From a bacterium (GTDB taxonomy: Bacteria > Patescibacteriota > Minisyncoccia > Phycocordibacterales > DATDWN01): 58,523 bases of DNA. A program made the position numbers and the translations under genes. Where the stretch lies: assembly GCA_037134875.1 (NCBI GenBank), contig JBAXLH010000005.1, positions 1 to 58,523 of the forward strand. Direction: 5' to 3'. Position 1 is the first letter of the stretch; each line of letters opens with the position of its first letter. Shown piece after piece: positions 53,101-57,742 of this stretch. Below the pieces are notes generated by a model. It was not told the DNA's origin, searched no databases, and was given only the letters and a program-made list of their open reading frames with translations.

Positions 53101-53496
53101 CTAGTTAAATGTAATTTCAAATGGGTACATTCCCATTCCACAGGTTCCTCTGAATACTCCGACAGGTTGCGAACCGATATCAATATCTGTTGAGCTTGAT
53201 GATTGAAGAATTTTTGATAGATTCATACTTGGAATTCGAATAGAAGCGGAACAATCAAATGTTCCGTTTGTTGTTACCCGCAAAATAGTTGGAACACCTG
53301 CCTTGGCTACACTTTTTCTCGGAGAATATCCTCCGCGGGCAGTCAGCTCCACAATCTGTGTACCATTCTGGATTGTCACATTGTTTTGTTGCTCGAGATT
53401 TGTATTATTTCCAGTTCCACCAGAGTTTCGCGACAAGAAAACAGCACCAAAAATGAGTAAGAGAGAAATAATAATGGAAATAATGGTGGCTTTCAT
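53101..53496 (-). CDS. Membrane-anchored cupredoxin-domain protein
   Basis: GGYSP, FDCSA and GTCGMGMY. Confidence 0.85.
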   Translation of the reverse strand: MKATIISIIISLLLIFGAVFLSRNSGGTGNNTNLEQQNNVTIQNGTQIVELTARGGYSPRKSVAKAGVPTILRVTTNGTFDCSASIRIPSMNLSKILQSSSSTDIDIGSQPVGVFRGTCGMGMYPFEITFN

Positions 53497-53505
53497 TGAA
53501 GTTTA

Positions 53506-54534
53506 TTAGAAATTAAAAATAGGTGGCAATACATTGATCACAACCAAACTGTTTATTATTGTGAACACCGCAAAAAATATAACAATGAGTCCGGCACTTT
53601 TGAAAAAGATGCCTGCTTTTGAATTGTTTTTGAAACTAAAAGAGCTGAAACTGACGAGAGCAAGAATAGGCAGTGTACCGAGAGCAAACGTAAGCATAGT
53701 TAGTCCCCCATTCCAGAAATTTCCGACCGAGAGTGTATAAATCTGCATTGATTGAGTAAATCCACACGGTAAGAAAAATGTAACCGCACCAACAAGAAAC
53801 GGAGTGAGACTATGATTGAGTTTGGAAATTCCGAGAGCATGCCGAGAAATAAATTTTGGCATACTTGGCTGAATTTTTTTGGTTATATGAAAAACATCAA
53901 GGAGGTTGAGTCCCATAATGAGCATCACAATGCCTACGATAAATCCCAGAATAAATGTCATCGTTCCATTTAGCTGAAATGCAGAGCCAATAACACCGAT
54001 CACTCCACCGAAAATAAAAAAAGAAATGAGTCGTCCGATATGGAACAAGGACTGCGGTTTAAACTTTTCGCCTTCCTTTGCAAATGTTGCAGACATTGAA
54101 AGCAAGAGTCCACCGACGACAGCCATACAGCTCGAAAGAGACGCGACAACACCAATAAGAAAAATAGAACCAAATGACATATGTTTGCCACTCACAATAT
54201 TCACGAGTCCCAGTTTTTGGAGCAATATAAAAATAACAATAAACGCTAGTGCCACAGGAACGGCAATTTTAAAATCTGAAAAATCTTTTTGCGCCACATC
54301 GAATGGATGAGCAGAAAAAGAATATTTTTGTTCATACAACAAAATAGAAAAATCTTCGGCAATCTTTTCGGCAGGAATTCCTTCAAAATCTCCTGTCACA
54401 GTTACAATCTTTGTATCAAAATTAATCTGAACACCCTCGACATACGAAAGATCAGATAATTCCTTTTCTATAAGTAGAGCACAGGATTTGCAATTCATTC
54501 CCTGCACATAAAATTTATATGTAACACTTTTCAT
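53506..54534 (-). CDS. HMA domain + DsbD_2/TauE-like membrane protein
   Basis: GMNCKSC metal-binding motif; SLSSCMAVVGG; FFLPCGFTQ; LGTLP. Confidence 0.85.
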   Translation of the reverse strand: MKSVTYKFYVQGMNCKSCALLIEKELSDLSYVEGVQINFDTKIVTVTGDFEGIPAEKIAEDFSILLYEQKYSFSAHPFDVAQKDFSDFKIAVPVALAFIVIFILLQKLGLVNIVSGKHMSFGSIFLIGVVASLSSCMAVVGGLLLSMSATFAKEGEKFKPQSLFHIGRLISFFIFGGVIGVIGSAFQLNGTMTFILGFIVGIVMLIMGLNLLDVFHITKKIQPSMPKFISRHALGISKLNHSLTPFLVGAVTFFLPCGFTQSMQIYTLSVGNFWNGGLTMLTFALGTLPILALVSFSSFSFKNNSKAGIFFKSAGLIVIFFAVFTIINSLVVINVLPPIFNF

Positions 54535-54795
54535 TTATTTTCTTTTTAATTTATATACCTTGAGAATTTCATCTTTTGTTGTTTTTTCTTTGCCTTTTTT
54601 TATCTGATCAATAACACACGTATCTAAATGTGACTCCATCAAGGAATCCTCTATACTCGAAAGTGCATTTCTTATTGCTGATGTTTGGGTAATCACATCA
54701 ATACAATATTTTTTCTTTTCTATCATTTCTCTTACTCCTCTCACCTGACCTTCTATAATATGTAATCTTTTTAATAATTTTTCCTGTGTTGTCAT
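54535..54795 (-). CDS. csoR: Copper-sensing repressor, CsoR family
   Basis: RLHIIEGQVRG, YCIDV and SHLDTC (Cys-His-Cys ligands intact). Confidence 0.92.
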   Translation of the reverse strand: MTTQEKLLKRLHIIEGQVRGVREMIEKKKYCIDVITQTSAIRNALSSIEDSLMESHLDTCVIDQIKKGKEKTTKDEILKVYKLKRK

Positions 54796-54834
54796 AATAT
54801 GTAATTATAATATAAAACCCTATATAAAAATAAT

Positions 54835-54868
54835 GGCGCTAGGGACGATCTCTTTTGTCCCTAGCGCC
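54835..54868 (-). terminator. 12-bp perfect hairpin in the csoR leader
   Basis: ggcgctagggac / gtccctagcgcc followed on the minus strand by attattttt. Confidence 0.7.
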
Positions 54869-54872
54869 CGGC

Positions 54873-54932
54873 CTAACAGCCGTTCTGACAGTGAGCAACC
54901 GCTCGCAACATCCAGCGACGTCGAATGTACAT
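54873..54932 (-). CDS. 19-aa CxxxC leader peptide MYIRRRWMLRAVAHCQNGC (not in the ORF track)
   Basis: AAAGGAG SD 9 nt upstream of ATG; directly downstream of the CsoR-operator promoter. Confidence 0.6.
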   Translation of the reverse strand: MYIRRRWMLRAVAHCQNGC

Positions 54933-54956
54933 ATGCTTGCTCTCCTTTCTGTAATT

Positions 54957-54985
54957 ACTATATACCCCTAGGGGGTATATGTCAA
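54957..54985 (-). promoter_or_regulatory. Sigma70 promoter with a CsoR-type operator in the spacer
   Basis: TTGACA-17 nt-TATAGT; palindrome ATATACCCC-TAG-GGGGTATAT at 54960-54980. Confidence 0.9.
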
Positions 54986-55377
54986 AACAACTTATCCACA
55001 ATTTTTTCTAGCTTGAGAGAAAGATACCCAAGAAGTCCGAGCTGGATTGTGGGAGTAAGTCCAGTGCCGAGAAATGGAAGAATCGGCATATACGAGTTAT
55101 ACACCCACATCCCCGTAGCAAGTGCAAACCATTCAATGAAAATTGATATGAGTATACCAACAAAAATAATTATCCAGCTGTGTTTTTGAAAAAAAGATTG
55201 TTTTAAAAACAACACTGACAGTATTGTAATAATGAGAGCATCAATCAGACTTGCTTCAAATAGGACCAGAAAGGTGATATCACCTCCCATATAGTGCGCA
55301 TATAAAAACGAGTGAAAATATTCCCAGACAAGATTGAGAATAAAAGAAATTACAAAAATAGATAAAAATTTTTTCAT
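54982..55377 (-). CDS. Small multi-pass membrane protein
   Basis: Four hydrophobic helices, NLVWEY and IEWFAL...WVY; start at ATG 55377. Confidence 0.7.
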   Translation of the reverse strand: MKKFLSIFVISFILNLVWEYFHSFLYAHYMGGDITFLVLFEASLIDALIITILSVLFLKQSFFQKHSWIIIFVGILISIFIEWFALATGMWVYNSYMPILPFLGTGLTPTIQLGLLGYLSLKLEKIVDKLF

Positions 55378-55445
55378 ACAATAATAGTAGCATATTAAAA
55401 TCGCCTTTCGTTTCCTACTCAGCGATTTATTAGAAATATGCCACC

Positions 55446-55718
55446 TCAATTAATATGAATAGGAACTCTGGCCGTGACAAACTCAGCCACGATCACAGTT
55501 TCTTTTCCGTCACCACTTTTTCCACCTACCAACAAGCCTTCCACGTGTCCGTAGACGACGACTTCCGACTGTCCGTCCGAGAGACGCACAGTACCGAAAT
55601 GAACGACGTCCGGCACATGTCCAGTAAGCCAAAACTTGATGCGGGTGATTGCTCCATCCCACAAAATTTCCTCTCCGACGGGAGTGAAAGTTTGGTTATC
55701 CGCAATGATTAGGTGCAT
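55446..55718 (-). CDS. Small hypothetical protein, visibly GC-rich
   Basis: GAGAGG SD before ATG 55718. Confidence 0.5.
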   Translation of the reverse strand: MHLIIADNQTFTPVGEEILWDGAITRIKFWLTGHVPDVVHFGTVRLSDGQSEVVVYGHVEGLLVGGKSGDGKETVIVAEFVTARVPIHIN

Positions 55719-55780
55719 GGTAACCTCTCTCGACTCATTATACATTAAACACTACAATCAACTAACTTTCTGTGGATATC

Positions 55781-57742
55781 TTATTTCACAGAATCATATG
55801 TGTGTTTATTTATTTTTAAATTATATATTTTGAACACGTTGAATATTGGGAGAAAATCTGTGAGAAAGTTAAAGACTGATGCGCCCACTGGACCAACAAA
55901 CCCTCCAAAGGCCAGAAAGAGGCCTACTCCATTTGTAATTGCCCAAATAACAAAATTTTGTCGAACAATAGAGAGAACTTCTTTACTCAAATAAATTGAC
56001 TCCGGTACTCTGCGCAAATCATCGTGAATGAGTGTAATATCAGACGCTTCAATAGACGCATCAGCGCCTGTTCCTCCCATCGAGAAACTCACATCAGCGA
56101 GAGCAAGTGATGCCGCATCGTTGACACCATCTCCCATCATCGCAATAGCGCCGTGTTTTCTTTTTAATTTTTTGATGTGCTCAAGTTTCTCGGCCGGTTT
56201 CAAGTTTGCATAAAATTCATTGATACCAGTTTCTCTCGCAACACGAGACGCAACCTGCTCATTGTCTCCGGTCAGCATTATCCAATCTTTAACCCCAAGT
56301 GTTTTTGTCTCAGCAATGGCATCGTGTGCATATTTTTTTACTTCGTCCGCAAGTACAAAAAATCCTGCGAGTTTTCCGTCAATTGCAACAGCCGTAATAC
56401 TCGCACCATTTTGTTTTTCCTCCGAAATTTGTTTTGTAACTTCGTGAGAAATCATAACTCCCTTTTGTTCCAAAAACGAAACTCGGCCGTGTAGATATTC
56501 GTGTCCTCCGTGTTTTGCATAGACACCGTCACCTGGATATTCCATTACTTCATCAGGTGAATGGACTTTGACTCCATTTTTTTCGGCATATTGCACAACC
56601 GCTTTTGACATTGGATGTTTTGAATCTATCGAACATATCGCACCGGCGATTACAAATTCGTTTTCAGGTCTTCCGTCCACTGAAACCGCTTTTGAAACTG
56701 CAAACACACCTTTTGTCAGTGTACCCGTTTTGTCCGTAACAAAAATTCGGATATCTTTGAGTCGTTCCATCACCGCCGCACCTTTGACAATAATGCCGTG
56801 TTTGGCAGCTTTTGATATGGCTACCGTAAACCCGAGAGGAATTGCCACCGCAAGATCATCTGCGCAGGTCACAAGCAAAATGCTGAGCACAAGATTTAGA
56901 TTCCTCGTGACAATATAAATAACAAAAACTCCCACAAGTGAGATGAGAATGTACCATGCACTAAATTTGTTTGCCAACGTTTCTGTTTTTGTTTTTGCGC
57001 GACTTGCCTCGTCCACGAGTGCAATCATTTTTGAAAGTGTTGTGTCTTCGCCAACTTTTTCTGCACGAACAAAGAGTGAGCCAGACAAACAGAGTGTAGA
57101 ACTAAGCACCTGACTACCCGGAGTCTTGCTCAGTGGTTTACTTTCGCCAGTGAGAGATGATTCGTCCACCATTGCCTGACCCTTTACAACACTGCCATCA
57201 ATAGGTATCCTGTCGCCCGATTCCACCACAACAACATCACCGACAACAACTTCCTCTAATGTTTTTTCTTTTGTATATTCACCATCCTGAACTCTCACAG
57301 AAACTGGCCGTAGTTTGAGTAGGCTGGAAATAATATGCTCTGTGCGTCTCTCTGTAAATGCTTCAAAAAGTCTCGCCGAGGAAAGCATAAGATTTATAAA
57401 CACAGCTGATACCCATTCGCCCTGAATAATGGTGAACGCAAGTGCAATACTCGCGAGAAGATCTATTGTAATACTCTTTTTTACGAGAGCCCTCACAGCG
57501 CTCCAGACAACAGGAGCAATACCGAGAATAGACACGACGACAATAGATATATTTGAAATCTGCCCCGCAAGTGATGAAAATGAAAACAAATGTAAAACAC
57601 CGAGCCCGTGATAGACGAGTGTAATAAAGAGCAACGCAATGAGACCTTCATTAAAATAAATCTGACGTGTAATCGCTTTGTCATTTTCCTCGGCTTTGAT
57701 CACGACACTTTTTGCCTTTCCTACTGTTTTAATTTTTTCCAT
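55781..57742 (-). CDS. Heavy-metal P1B-type ATPase with a non-canonical CAD transmembrane motif
   Basis: TGES, DKTGT, HP, TGDN and GDGVND motifs; CADDL where CPC is expected; no N-terminal HMA domain. Confidence 0.93.
   Translation of the reverse strand: MEKIKTVGKAKSVVIKAEENDKAITRQIYFNEGLIALLFITLVYHGLGVLHLFSFSSLAGQISNISIVVVSILGIAPVVWSAVRALVKKSITIDLLASIALAFTIIQGEWVSAVFINLMLSSARLFEAFTERRTEHIISSLLKLRPVSVRVQDGEYTKEKTLEEVVVGDVVVVESGDRIPIDGSVVKGQAMVDESSLTGESKPLSKTPGSQVLSSTLCLSGSLFVRAEKVGEDTTLSKMIALVDEASRAKTKTETLANKFSAWYILISLVGVFVIYIVTRNLNLVLSILLVTCADDLAVAIPLGFTVAISKAAKHGIIVKGAAVMERLKDIRIFVTDKTGTLTKGVFAVSKAVSVDGRPENEFVIAGAICSIDSKHPMSKAVVQYAEKNGVKVHSPDEVMEYPGDGVYAKHGGHEYLHGRVSFLEQKGVMISHEVTKQISEEKQNGASITAVAIDGKLAGFFVLADEVKKYAHDAIAETKTLGVKDWIMLTGDNEQVASRVARETGINEFYANLKPAEKLEHIKKLKRKHGAIAMMGDGVNDAASLALADVSFSMGGTGADASIEASDITLIHDDLRRVPESIYLSKEVLSIVRQNFVIWAITNGVGLFLAFGGFVGPVGASVFNFLTDFLPIFNVFKIYNLKINKHTYDSVK

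What the first reader, a model, noticed from the sequence alone, without database searches (positions are those of the whole stretch)
54796..54985. CsoR-controlled promoter drives a hidden 19-aa CxxxC peptide and hairpin: candidate copper-sensing leader
Seen: TTGACA-17-TATAGT with a CsoR-type ATATACCCC-N3-GGGGTATAT palindrome in the spacer; a strong SD; the uORF MYIRRRWMLRAVAHCQNGC*; a 12-bp hairpin 4 nt after its stop; then csoR, HMA-DsbD_2 and cupredoxin. Established: copper-responsive leader peptides with CxxC/CxxxC motifs control downstream expression by ribosome stalling (CruR in Bordetella, CutF in Rhodobacter). Inference: two-layer control (repressor plus attenuating peptide) in a minimal genome. 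Alternatively, the peptide is a stand-alone copper-binding micro-metallothionein, since a TATAAT just before csoR could be a separate promoter.
Basis: partly seen in the sequence, partly recalled or inferred. Interest (0 to 1): 0.8.

Follow-up and report, generated by a model that had tools for sequence, protein, structure and literature searches.

The report
Conserved HCxxGC leader peptide before csoR
The 19-codon reading frame between a copper-repressor-controlled promoter and the csoR operon is real and belongs to a widespread, unannotated family of tiny conserved leader peptides that always sit 7-8 bases before an RNA terminator or pseudoknot, upstream of metal- and redox-stress genes, which suggests a new ribosome-based stress sensor.

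Summary
These are TTGACA-17-TATAGT with a textbook type-2 CsoR operator in the spacer, a Shine-Dalgarno site (SD), the ORF MYIRRRWMLRAVAHCQNGC*, a 12-bp GC hairpin plus U-tract 4 nt after the stop, then csoR, HMA-DsbD_2 and cupredoxin.

The ORF is not a chance ORF. A syntenic relative (L091) keeps it with synonymous codon changes and a compensatory change in the hairpin. About 100 of these are SD+ATG micro-ORFs of 14-27 codons up to the last Cys, with core [W/Y]xLR[A/P][V/I]AHCxxGC, on contigs of 25-66% GC.

The last Cys codon always lies 5-8 nt before a strong terminator (window type), or exactly 8 nt before a covarying H-type pseudoknot. The stop codon position varies.

The downstream genes are Rrf2, CsoR, ECF sigma/anti-sigma and MerR regulators, rubrerythrin, ferritin, Tpx, flavoproteins and a Cu-ATPase.

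Pfam, NCBIfam, Rfam and the literature searches return nothing for the family. It is not homologous to CruR/CutF.

Best reading: a cis-acting nascent-peptide leader/attenuator layered on CsoR repression. The ligand and the direction of control are not determined.

The parts
54980..54985 (-). -35 hexamer TTGACA of promoter P1. It overlaps the TGA stop of the upstream 155-aa membrane-protein ORF.
54960..54980 (-). Type-2 CsoR operator ATATACCCCCTAGGGGTATAT (TAC-N9-GTA with G-tracts), lying in the promoter spacer and overlapping the -10.
   Evidence: It matches 20 of 21 positions of the streptomycete consensus ATATACCCCTNAGGGGTATAT, and its core is identical to S. lividans copZA2 TATACCCCCTAGGGGTA (PMC3902906). 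The same operator lies upstream of csoR in about 45 CPR loci.
54957..54962 (-). -10 hexamer TATAGT of P1.
54940..54948 (-). Shine-Dalgarno AAAGGAGAG of the leader ORF.
   Evidence: A strong SD at the same distance is present in nearly all 85 distinct family peptides.
54873..54932 (-). Leader micro-ORF MYIRRRWMLRAVAHCQNGC plus TAG. The conserved core L9-C19 is 54876-54908, W7 is 54912-54914, and the last Cys codon is 54876-54878.
   Evidence: (L091 ortholog MRRHWILRAVAHCKEGC)
54869..54875 (-). 7-nt spacer (TAG stop plus GCCG) between the last Cys codon and the base of the terminator stem.
   Evidence: The spacer is 5-8 nt in about 22 terminator-type members. It is exactly 8 nt before the pseudoknot in 57 of 57 aligned members.
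54824..54868 (-). Intrinsic terminator: a 12-bp stem GGCGCTAGGGAC/GTCCCTAGCGCC with a 10-nt loop (54835-54868), then the U-tract ATTATTTTTAT (54824-54834).
   Evidence: L091 keeps it with a compensatory A:T to G:C change and a TTTTTT tract.
54796..54834 (-). Decayed duplicate of the right half of P1 (TAGGG..TATA..TAATTACA). It includes TATAAT (54804-54809) 8 nt before the csoR ATG. This may be a weak, operator-less, leaderless promoter P2, or a relic.
   Evidence: local alignment score 31 against shuffles 16.9 +/- 2.6, 0 of 500. No -35 was found by the scan.
54535..54795 (-). csoR, an 86-aa Cu(I)-type repressor with the C31/H56/C60 ligand set.
   Evidence: aligned to the solved CsoR structures 4m1p and 4adz.
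53506..54534 (-). HMA-DsbD_2 membrane protein.
53101..53496 (-). Cupredoxin-like protein.

Best explanation
**What it is.** Promoter P1 is repressed by CsoR through a canonical type-2 operator. When derepressed, it transcribes a short leader whose first cistron is a 19-codon ORF. This ORF belongs to a widespread, so far unannotated family of leader peptides. The family core is [R/K][R/K][W/Y]xLR[A/P][V/I]AHCxxGC.

**Proposed mechanism (inferred).**
1. The peptide acts in cis, while still inside the ribosomal exit tunnel. At 14-22 residues up to the last Cys, it is too short to emerge.
2. With the last Cys at the peptidyl-transferase centre, the H-C-x-x-x-C triad sits in the upper tunnel. The invariant aromatic residue, 12 positions back, sits at the constriction.
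3. The state of the triad is proposed to decide whether the ribosome dwells at that codon. The triad has an S2N donor set, like the Cu(I) site of CsoR itself. It might be bound by a thiophilic metal, or oxidised.
4. The terminator stem begins only 7 nt after that codon. A ribosome held there covers the first few stem nucleotides, so the terminator cannot close. Transcription then reads through into csoR, HMA-DsbD_2 and cupredoxin.
5. A ribosome that releases promptly, or is absent, lets the terminator form.

**Net effect.** Two-layer control: operator derepression plus leader-peptide-dependent antitermination.

**Shown.** The elements themselves, peptide-level selection, family membership, the fixed spacing, structure covariation, and the gene-context theme.

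**Inferred.** Translation arrest, the ligand, and the direction (arrest = ON).
For: **Operator and promoter.**. The same operator sits in front of csoR across CPR relatives.

**Orthologous leader in L091** (CsoR 74% identical; the same CsoR on L090 shares the csoR-HMA_DsbD2-cupredoxin-YceG synteny).
- It has 5 synonymous third-position changes in conserved residues.
- The terminator stem shows a compensatory A:T to G:C change.

**Metagenome scan**.
- These give 85 distinct peptides.
- Features that the pattern did not impose are nonetheless present: SD+ATG, basic residues, and W/Y two residues before the Leu (T at the first codon position in 96 of 98).

**Codon usage**.
- Third-position entropy is 1.6-1.95 bits.
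- Arg is split between CGN (51) and AGR (47).
- Leu is split between CTN (67) and TTR (31).

**Terminator class**. Hairpins of dG -17 to -26 kcal/mol start 5-8 nt after the last Cys. The stop codon lies anywhere from 0 to more than 54 nt away.

**Pseudoknot class**.
- The 57-sequence alignment is gap-free.
- 88.8% of cells are paired, against 25-41% for slid controls.
- 8 of 10 pairs show compensatory changes.
- The covariation score is 0.262 against 0.156 for shuffles, with 0 of 500 shuffles reaching it.

**Downstream genes** are on the same strand and nearby: Rrf2 14, rubrerythrin 6, ECF sigma 5, ferritin 4, AKR 4, FMN reductase 3, CsoR 2 plus the window, MerR 2, zf-HC2 2, plus Tpx and a Cu-ATPase.

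**Recurrence with csoR.** The CsoR operator + leader + csoR arrangement recurs in a third lineage (L096/L124).

**Aromatic residue spacing.** It equals TnaC W12-P24 (my own knowledge of TnaC and SecM).
Against: - There is no experimental evidence of translation or arrest for any family member.
- No antiterminator alternative structure was found.
- A TATAAT lies 8 nt before the csoR ATG here, in L091 and in L086. csoR could therefore be transcribed independently, which would make the terminator a true end of a small gene.
- In many terminator-type members the ORF runs on through the hairpin. An unarrested, tightly coupled ribosome would then also block termination, so the ON/OFF direction could be the reverse.
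- Most family contexts are not copper-related, so Cu(I) as the ligand is only one option.
- The invariance of L-R-A-x-A-H-C-x-x-G-C in the main set is partly imposed by the search pattern. The profile search does show A-to-P and other variants.
Confidence: 0.6

Rival explanations
1. Stand-alone copper-induced micro-peptide. P1 makes a monocistronic RNA of about 125 nt that ends at the terminator. The released HCxxxC peptide binds Cu(I) or another thiophilic metal, or acts in trans. csoR is transcribed from the TATAAT promoter P2.
For: - There is a strong terminator with a U-tract directly after the ORF.
- A TATAAT lies 6-8 nt before the csoR ATG in the window, L091 and L086.
- L086 carries a different 61-aa Cys-containing ORF plus terminator in the same slot. 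That looks like a small-gene cassette position.
Against: - C-terminal tails after GC range from 0 to more than 35 unconserved residues and are dictated by the RNA structure. Meanwhile the spacing from the Cys codon to the structure is fixed.
- The element sits immediately 5' of diverse same-strand genes, like a cis-regulator.
- P2 has no -35 and no extended -10, and is a decayed copy of P1.
- An operator-less P2 would uncouple the copper genes from CsoR.
Confidence: 0.13
2. Cysteine-supply attenuator. The two Cys codons make the ribosome pause when Cys-tRNA is scarce, and this controls the terminator. This would resemble the mycobacterial poly-Cys uORFs.
For: - The last Cys codon is the fixed reference point for the downstream structure.
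- Cysteine-responsive uORF attenuators exist (bioRxiv 10.1101/834739, listed).
- Some Rrf2 regulators control cysteine metabolism (my own knowledge: CymR).
Against: - There are only two Cys codons, and they are not consecutive.
- Nine other residues are equally invariant, which codon-level sensing does not require.
- The downstream genes are not cysteine biosynthesis or transport genes.
Confidence: 0.07
3. An RNA-only element (small RNA or riboswitch) whose conserved sequence merely happens to be an open frame.
For: - The leader is a GC-rich island in an AT-rich genome and folds far better than shuffles.
- The downstream pseudoknot in other members is a conserved RNA structure with invariant unpaired C and AAA.
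Against: - Third codon positions are nearly random, and six-fold-degenerate Arg and Leu codons switch families.
- SD+ATG is always in frame.
- There is no Rfam match, even at permissive E-values.
- There is no covarying structure within the coding part.
Confidence: 0.04
4. Non-functional relic of an insertion or duplication that split an ancestral leaderless csoR promoter. On this reading the ORF and hairpin have no role in this genome.
For: - 80 GTDB CPR loci and L089 lack the leader. Their operator ends 10-13 nt before csoR.
- The cassette is flanked by a duplicated promoter segment.
Against: - The cassette is intact and identical in five independent assemblies.
- It is conserved, with purifying selection, in L091.
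- It matches all invariant positions of a large family.
Confidence: 0.03

Closest known systems
CruR (Bp2923, Bordetella pertussis) and CutF (Rhodobacter capsulatus), DUF2946 copper-sensing regulatory uORF proteins
   Same: - Upstream ORF on the same strand as metal-homeostasis genes.
- A Cys pair (CxxC or CxxxC) needed for the metal response.
- Regulation through ribosome behaviour at the end of the ORF, affecting a downstream RNA event: Rho termination for CruR, and an SD-masking stem-loop for CutF (PMC9426467, PMC9973294).
   Different: - Those are about 90-145-aa Sec-exported proteins.
- Their Cys motif is sensed in the periplasm or SecY vestibule, about 45 residues before a RAPP or Pro-rich arrest motif.
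- Here the whole peptide is 19 aa, has no signal peptide and no Pro motif, and gives no DUF2946 match.
- The Cys pair is at the very C-terminus, and the RNA partner is an intrinsic terminator or pseudoknot.
- The two are analogous, not homologous.
TnaC and SpeFL (ligand-sensing arrest peptides acting at or near the stop codon)
   Same: - Very short leader ORF, wholly inside the tunnel.
- Sequence conserved at the amino-acid level.
- A conserved aromatic or basic sensor region about 12 residues from the arrest site.
- Arrest at the last sense codon or stop controls transcription termination downstream (my own knowledge).
   Different: - TnaC and SpeFL work through Rho-dependent termination and sense an amino acid.
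- Here the partner is an intrinsic terminator or an H-type pseudoknot at a fixed 7-8 nt.
- The conserved residues include His and two Cys.
- The ligand is unknown, and arrest has not been shown.
Classical ribosome-mediated attenuators (trp, his and pyrBI leaders) and mycobacterial poly-Cys uORFs
   Same: - Leader ORF followed by an intrinsic terminator.
- The position of the ribosome relative to the terminator stem decides read-through. In pyrBI the ribosome itself blocks the hairpin.
   Different: - There is no run of regulatory codons and no antiterminator/anti-antiterminator set.
- The peptide sequence itself, not the codon identity, is conserved.
Type-2 CsoR operator/promoters (B. subtilis copZA, S. 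lividans csoR/copZA)
   Same: - TAC-N9-GTA dyad with G-tracts overlapping the promoter.
- Autoregulated csoR with C-H-C Cu(I) ligands (PMC3902906).
   Different: - Known examples drive csoR or copZA directly.
- Here a leader ORF and terminator lie between the operator-promoter and csoR.
Frameshift-type or preQ1-I-like H-type pseudoknots
   Same: - In the non-CPR members, a compact two-stem pseudoknot with an A-rich third loop sits 8 nt after the critical codon. This is the geometry of ribosome-pausing pseudoknots.
   Different: - There is no slippery heptamer.
- There is no Rfam match to preQ1 or any other family.
- The window itself has a terminator hairpin instead of a pseudoknot.

Membership tests
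DUF2946 CruR/CutF-type copper-sensing uORF proteins | Match to the Pfam DUF2946 profile. | tested here: not met
   Pfam scan of the window peptide (padded to 20 aa) and six family members at E up to 10 gave no DUF2946 hit.
DUF2946 CruR/CutF-type copper-sensing uORF proteins | N-terminal Sec signal peptide; protein of about 90-150 aa, exported co-translationally. | tested here: not met
   The ORF is 19 codons, and family members are 14-27 codons to the last Cys or stop. The N-terminus is basic, not hydrophobic. Definition taken from PMC9426467 and PMC9973294.
DUF2946 CruR/CutF-type copper-sensing uORF proteins | C-terminal RAPP or proline-rich arrest motif about 45 residues after the Cys motif. 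| tested here: not met
   The peptide contains no Pro. The Cys pair is itself C-terminal.
DUF2946 CruR/CutF-type copper-sensing uORF proteins | CxxC/CxxxC motif and position upstream of metal-homeostasis genes on the same strand. | tested here: met
   C15-x3-C19, directly upstream of csoR, HMA-DsbD_2 and cupredoxin.
Type-2 CsoR operator-promoter | [quoted passage not shown] | tested here: met
   The window has ATATACCCCCTAGGGGTATAT, 20 of 21. The core equals S. lividans copZA2.
Type-2 CsoR operator-promoter | A cognate CsoR with the Cu(I) ligand set Cys-His-Cys is encoded nearby. | tested here: met
   PF02583 at 7e-25. C31/H56/C60 align with the ligands of 4m1p and 4adz.
Type-2 CsoR operator-promoter | CsoR binds the site and Cu(I) releases it. 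| not testable with these tools
   Needs EMSA or ITC.
HCxxGC leader-peptide family (defined in this report) | SD+ATG micro-ORF with core [W/Y]-x-L-R-[A/P]-[V/I]-A-H-C-x-x-G-C. | tested here: met
   The window has W7-M-L-R-A-V-A-H-C-Q-N-G-C19. It matches all invariant columns of alignment A2.
HCxxGC leader-peptide family (defined in this report) | A stable RNA structure (terminator or pseudoknot) begins 5-8 nt after the last Cys codon. | tested here: met
   7 nt in the window.
HCxxGC leader-peptide family (defined in this report) | Same-strand downstream gene for a metal or redox regulator, or a stress protein. | tested here: met
   csoR in the window; the family-wide Pfam census is.
Nascent-peptide arrest sequences (functional class: TnaC, SecM, SpeFL) | Amino-acid sequence, not RNA sequence, is conserved. 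| tested here: met
   Near-random third positions and Arg/Leu codon-family switching. Synonymous changes between the window and L091.
Nascent-peptide arrest sequences (functional class: TnaC, SecM, SpeFL) | Ribosome demonstrably stalls at a defined codon, shown by toeprint, Ribo-seq or peptidyl-tRNA accumulation. | not testable with these tools
   There are no expression or profiling data for these uncultured organisms.
Classical ribosome-mediated transcription attenuator | Leader ORF followed by an intrinsic terminator before the structural genes. | tested here: met
Classical ribosome-mediated transcription attenuator | Mutually exclusive antiterminator hairpin, and a run of codons for the sensed amino acid. 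| tested here: not met
   The MFE and centroid folds show no alternative pairing with the terminator 5' arm. There are only two, non-adjacent Cys codons.
Any Rfam RNA family | Covariance-model match. | tested here: not met
   No hits at gathering scores in the window or in 20 family loci. There is no relevant hit at E up to 10 (window region) or up to 5 (ten family loci). Gathering-score scans are.

The most novel reading that the evidence does not exclude
The HCxxGC micro-ORF is the sensor of a previously unrecognised, phylogenetically broad class of ribosome-based switches, found in CPR/Patescibacteria, Omnitrophota and many other lineages. In this reading, a His-Cys-x3-Cys triad on the nascent chain, still inside the exit tunnel, detects a thiophilic metal such as Cu(I), or thiol-oxidising stress. 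It converts that into ribosome arrest exactly one ribosome half-footprint upstream of a terminator or H-type pseudoknot. This switches on metal- and redox-defence regulons.
Probability: 0.35. Interest if true: 0.95.

Novelty: new variant of a known kind. Interest (0 to 1): 0.86.

Why it matters
- **A new class of ligand.** Regulatory leader and arrest peptides are known for amino acids, antibiotics, secretion status and (through exported DUF2946 proteins) periplasmic copper. None is known that would sense metal or redox state with Cys and His residues inside the ribosomal tunnel.
- **A large hidden family.** Its 11-residue core is almost invariant on contigs from 25% to 66% GC, and it is tied at fixed spacing to two kinds of RNA structure. 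It has no Pfam, NCBIfam or Rfam entry. The only gene calls found are 70 "hypothetical" proteins.
- **Consequences if it works as proposed.**
  - It adds a post-initiation layer to CsoR, Rrf2, MerR and ECF-sigma regulons.
  - It gives a compact, testable model for small-ligand or redox sensing by nascent chains.
  - It shows that reduced CPR genomes keep sophisticated cis-regulation.
- **Value even if the mechanism differs.** The family is a useful annotation target and a marker of stress regulons in uncultured bacteria.

Tried and rejected
- **Rfam.** Scans of the window and of 20 family loci at gathering thresholds, plus E-value scans of the window region and ten loci, found nothing relevant.
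- **tRNA/tmRNA scan.** None found.
- **Repeat or mobile-element idea.** The leader has no other copy in the window.
- **80 GTDB CPR loci found with HMA-DsbD_2.** The operator is conserved, but no leader is present. This first suggested a lineage-specific oddity. The one apparent motif hit, in L032, lies out of frame inside a 401-aa ORF and was discarded.
- **Five assemblies with the identical CsoR.** The leader is identical, so they carry no information.
- **Pfam and NCBIfam on the peptides.** No family. Only sub-threshold chance hits appeared (HaaN GNAT at 0.013, INSC_LBD at 0.18).
- **Literature.** String searches for RAVAHC, AHCKEGC and similar gave no relevant paper. Concept searches returned only CruR/CutF, poly-Cys uORFs and Sec/YidC arrest peptides. 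A 2024 metallostasis review has no mention of uORFs or leader peptides in the 300,000 characters held.
- **tblastn of a consensus peptide.** Nothing credible against plasmids or phages.
- **Selenocysteine/SECIS idea** (UGA right after GC in some members). Rejected because the codon after Cys is often sense, or TAG/TAA.
- **-1 frameshift idea.** Rejected because there is no slippery heptamer.
- **Duplicated promoter segment in L086.** Not significant (320 of 500 shuffles reached the score).
Full report
**1. The observation**

The genes in this part of the window lie on the minus strand. Read that way, the interval contains the following elements.
- TTGACA (54985-54980), a 17-nt spacer, and TATAGT (54962-54957).
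- The palindrome ATATACCCCCTAGGGGTATAT (54980-54960), spanning the spacer and overlapping both hexamers.
- AAAGGAGAG (54948-54940).
- An ATG at 54932 opening MYIRRRWMLRAVAHCQNGC, then TAG (to 54873).
- Four bases later, a perfect 12-bp stem GGCGCTAGGGAC/GTCCCTAGCGCC with a 10-nt loop (54868-54835), followed by ATTATTTTTAT.
- TATAAT (54809-54804), 8 nt before the csoR ATG (54795).

Each element is more than chance would give.
- The promoter is the best consensus match in 6.5 kb, at 11 of 12 positions.
- The operator core occurs once, against 0.04 expected.
- The leader folds at -57.2 kcal/mol against -38.1 +/- 3.7 for shuffles, z = -5.1. The hairpin alone is -24.2 kcal/mol.
- The leader is a 55% GC island in 25-38% GC surroundings.

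Pfam confirms csoR (PF02583), HMA+DsbD_2 and Cupredoxin_1 downstream. Upstream lie a P-type ATPase and two unassigned ORFs.

**2. The promoter and operator are canonical**

- The 21-mer differs at one position from the published type-2 CsoR consensus ATATACCCCTNAGGGGTATAT.
- Its core TATACCCCCTAGGGGTA is identical to the S. lividans copZA2 operator.
- It has the TAC-N9-GTA dyad shown to be essential for binding (PMC3902906).
- The encoded CsoR aligns to the solved Cu(I)-CsoR structures 4m1p and 4adz, with the Cys-His-Cys ligands conserved (C31, H56, C60).

Eighty loci from CPR/Patescibacteria genomes were fetched using the HMA-DsbD_2 protein (best hits 55-69% identical, Paceibacterota/Zambryskibacteria). 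They show that the usual order is csoR, HMA-CopA, HMA-DsbD_2, cupredoxin. The same operator precedes csoR in about 45 of them.

In those relatives the operator ends only 10-13 nt before the csoR ATG. The -10 box is therefore followed almost at once by the start codon, so csoR appears to be leaderless there. None of the 80 loci has the roughly 125-nt GC-rich leader. Relative to its kin, the window carries an insertion between the operator-promoter and csoR.

**3. The small ORF is conserved as a peptide**

- No CsoR between 78% and 100% identity exists in the 5.8-billion-protein collection. The five assemblies with the identical CsoR have an identical leader.
- The CsoR at 74% identity (P0005) is informative. 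On L090 it shares the window's downstream synteny: csoR, HMA-DsbD_2, cupredoxin, YceG on the opposite strand, then a 74-aa ORF.
- On L091 the same CsoR is preceded by TTGACA-operator-TATAAT, GAAAGGAG, and an ORF MRRHWILRAVAHCKEGC*. Then come a 13-bp GC hairpin 6 nt after the last Cys codon, TTTTTT, and TATAAT-N7-ATG(csoR).
- Across the 16 alignable codons, five differences are synonymous third-position changes in conserved residues (R, R, A, V, C).
- The terminator stem carries a compensatory A:T to G:C change.

**4. It belongs to a large hidden family**

A degenerate DNA pattern encoding L-R-A-[V/I/M]-A-H-C-x-x-G-C was scanned against the metagenome collection. About 100 are clearly the same element.

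*Features the pattern did not impose*
- There is an ATG 2-9 codons upstream of the motif, preceded at the right distance by a strong SD (typically AAGGAGGTG).
- Two basic residues come before the motif.
- W or Y sits exactly two residues before the Leu (T at the first codon position in 96 of 98).
- K/S/E and E/K occupy the positions between the Cys residues.
- Eighty-five distinct peptides were recovered, 14-22 residues from Met to the last Cys.

*Evidence for selection on the peptide*
- Within the pattern, third codon positions are close to random (entropy 1.6-1.95 bits).
- Arg is encoded by CGN in 51 and AGR in 47 sequences. Leu is CTN in 67 and TTR in 31.
- This is what selection on the peptide predicts, and not selection on RNA.

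*Breadth and annotation status*
- A profile search of called proteins found only 70 hits. All are "hypothetical" without Pfam domains, and one is from a Candidatus Omnitrophota MAG. It also revealed common LRPVAHC variants.
- Contigs carrying the element range from 25% to 66% GC.
- The Rrf2 genes downstream of one subgroup have named homologues only in Candidatus Omnitrophica.
- Pfam and NCBIfam have no model for the peptide. Rfam has none for the region.
- No paper in the searchable library contains the peptide strings.
- Plasmid and phage collections have no copy.
- The window has a single copy.

**5. The peptide is tied to an RNA structure at a fixed distance from the last Cys codon**

Two classes are seen.

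*Window-type class (about 22 loci, including L091, L096/L124, L100, L111, L113, L114, L128, L130, L147, L185 and L198)*
- A strong hairpin (dG -17 to -26 kcal/mol) begins 5-8 nt after the last Cys codon.
- It is usually followed by 5-7 T in the next 8 nt, which makes it an intrinsic terminator.
- The stop codon lies anywhere from 0 to more than 54 nt after that Cys. In many members the frame runs through the hairpin.

*Larger class*
- 57 sequences align without a single gap from GGNTGY through 8 variable nucleotides into GUC-C-YGGGCA-N-GAC-NUUAAAC-UGCCC.
- Tested as an H-type pseudoknot, 88.8% of cells pair, against 25-41% when partners are slid by 1-3 columns.
- Eight of ten pairs show changes on both sides.
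- The covariation score is 0.262 against 0.156 +/- 0.010 for shuffles, with 0 of 500 reaching it. The core pairs vary only by compensatory changes.
- An invariant C and an invariant AAA remain unpaired.
- Depending on one or two bases, the frame stops right after Cys, at a UGA overlapping stem 1, or at the UAA in the A-rich loop.

The tails (for example SRLSWVRR or QRASRARH) are therefore by-products of the RNA. What is conserved is the peptide up to GC, and the distance from that codon to the structure.

**6. Genomic context**

The first same-strand ORF downstream was collected for 74 distinct loci and scanned against Pfam.

| Downstream gene family | Loci |
|---|---|
| Rrf2 regulators | 14 |
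| Rubrerythrin-like | 6 |
| ECF sigma factors | 5 |
| Ferritin | 4 |
| Fe-S aldo/keto reductases | 4 |
| FMN reductases | 3 |
| CsoR | 2, plus the window |
| MerR | 2 |
| zf-HC2 anti-sigma factors | 2 |

There is also a thiol peroxidase, an isochorismatase and an HMA Cu-ATPase.

Many leaders sit just downstream of an extended -10-like TGGTATCAT, which makes them the first cistron of the transcript. The CsoR operator + leader + hairpins + csoR arrangement recurs in a third, higher-GC lineage from Hainich groundwater (L096/L124).

The theme is metal and thiol/oxidative stress, with a strong bias to regulators. A conserved element immediately 5' of diverse but thematically related genes is the signature of a cis-regulator.

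**7. How it most likely works**

*Shown*
- A CsoR-type operator-promoter.
- A translatable, peptide-constrained micro-ORF.
- A terminator whose base is 7 nt from the last Cys codon.
- Family-wide constancy of that spacing.

*Inferred*
- The peptide is too short to leave the exit tunnel before the ribosome reaches the last Cys, so any function tied to that position must be exerted from inside the ribosome.
- With Cys19 in the P site (stop in the A site in the window), H14-C15-x3-C19 occupy the upper tunnel. The invariant W7, 12 residues back, lies at the constriction. The spacing equals W12-P24 of TnaC (my own knowledge).
- The mRNA channel would then cover roughly 10-12 nt beyond the Cys codon. 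That is the 7-nt spacer plus the first 3-5 nt of the terminator stem, enough to prevent the stem from closing next to the U-tract.
- I therefore propose that a ribosome held at this codon acts as the antiterminator. Dwell time would be set by the chemical state of the His/Cys triad: coordination of a thiophilic metal (the S2N donor set is that of CsoR's own Cu(I) site), or thiol oxidation.
- In the window this would add a second, post-initiation checkpoint to CsoR derepression.

*Confidence*
- About 0.75 that this is a genuine translated cis-regulatory leader.
- About 0.6 for the leader-attenuator package as stated.
- About 0.35-0.4 for the direction (arrest = ON), and for a metal or thiol ligand.

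*Main uncertainties*
- No antiterminator hairpin exists.
- In members whose frame runs through the terminator, an unarrested coupled ribosome would also suppress termination. The logic could then be inverted by one codon of ribosome position: Gly in the P site leaves the stem free, while Cys in the P site covers it.
- Most contexts are not copper-specific.

**8. Rivals**

1. *Stand-alone Cu-induced metal-binding micro-peptide, with csoR read from the TATAAT at 54804-54809.*
   - It is favoured by the strong terminator and by TATAAT-N6-8-ATG in the window, L091 and L086.
   - L086 also carries an unrelated 61-aa Cys-containing ORF plus terminator in the same slot.
   - It does not explain the free-running C-terminal tails, the fixed codon-to-structure spacing or the cis-regulator-like contexts.
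   - The second "promoter" is a decayed copy of P1 that lacks the -35 and the left half-operator.
2. *Cysteine-supply attenuator.* Two non-adjacent Cys codons, nine other invariant residues and no cysteine-biosynthesis genes downstream argue against it.
3. *RNA-only element.* Contradicted by the codon statistics.
4. *Inert relic.* Contradicted by conservation.

**9. Comparison with what is known**

- CruR and CutF are real precedents for copper control through an upstream ORF. However, they are Sec-exported DUF2946 proteins of about 90-145 aa. Their Cys motif acts outside the cytoplasm, about 45 residues before a RAPP or Pro-rich arrest motif. Four of the five defining features tested are not met here, so this is an analogue, not a member.
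- Functionally, the nearest models are TnaC and SpeFL: short in-tunnel ligand sensors acting at the end of the ORF to control termination.
- pyrBI-type attenuation is also close, because there the ribosome itself blocks the terminator.
- The operator-promoter is an ordinary type-2 CsoR site.

What is new:
- the peptide family itself;
- its His/Cys chemistry;
- its rigid coupling to either a terminator or an H-type pseudoknot;
- its breadth across poorly studied phyla.

I class it as a new variant of a known kind (regulatory leader peptides), with a substantial chance of being a new sensing principle.

**10. Verdict**

The two-layer leader-peptide idea stands and is greatly strengthened by comparative data. 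Kinship with CruR/CutF, copper specificity and the "minimal genome" framing are not supported. Interest is high (0.86).

Noticed in passing
L001-L080 and L089 (for example L089:760-812, L023:2383-2420): In most CPR relatives the CsoR operator ends 10-13 nt before the csoR ATG. The -10 box is followed by the start codon about 7-8 nt later, so csoR mRNAs appear to be leaderless in these genomes.
   Followed up: partly
window 54796-54834 versus 54950-54990 (minus strand); L091:905-965 versus 770-836: The stretch just before csoR is a decayed duplicate of the right half of P1 (TAGGG..TATA..TAATTACA). The alignment score is 31 against shuffles 16.9 +/- 2.6, with 0 of 500 reaching it. L091 shows the same pattern (1 of 500). 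The two copies within each genome resemble each other more than they resemble the corresponding copies in the other genome. This hints at insertion with target duplication, or at concerted evolution of the leader cassette.
   Followed up: partly
L086:932-1260: The closest CsoR homologue (78% identical) has, in the same slot between the CsoR operator-promoter and csoR, an unrelated 61-aa ORF. Its sequence is MLSLKKGQTEVIMCGNGGSACCPTINLSEDGKMVKVTDDYNGSVQIPRDQWEKLQQVKLEQ. It has its own SD and a GC-rich terminator, followed by TATAAT and csoR.
   Followed up: no
L094, L171, L173, L204 (for example L171 leader-Rrf2 junction): In Omnitrophota-type loci the Rrf2 start codon lies 10-25 nt after the pseudoknot with no recognisable Shine-Dalgarno. 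The leader ORF's stop (UAA in the pseudoknot loop) lies about 20 nt upstream. This suggests termination-reinitiation coupling.
   Followed up: no
window 55781-57742 (minus strand): The P-type ATPase next to the copper cluster lacks an N-terminal HMA domain. It reads ..LLVTCADDLAV.. where Cu-ATPases carry CPC. It is only 30-35% identical to the HMA-CopA found between csoR and HMA-DsbD_2 in relatives. Its metal specificity is unclear.
   Followed up: no
window 54982-55449 and 55446-55745 (minus strand): Two ORFs lie between the ATPase and the leader: a 155-aa (probably 131-aa) polytopic membrane protein and a 99-aa protein. Neither has a Pfam match. The stop codon of the first is embedded in the -35 hexamer of P1.
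   Followed up: no
Class-A loci such as L093, L099, L136, L138, L143, L159: Many pseudoknot-type leaders carry an additional GC-rich terminator-like hairpin with a U-tract 10-40 nt downstream of the pseudoknot. The pseudoknot may therefore work together with a separate terminator.
   Followed up: no
L100, L107, L113, L130, L176, L189 (terminator-type members): A subgroup shares the nucleotide string TGTACCAAGGG right after the last Cys codon (peptide ..GC-C-T-K-G..), leading into the terminator stem. Its downstream genes are small membrane proteins without annotation.
   Followed up: no
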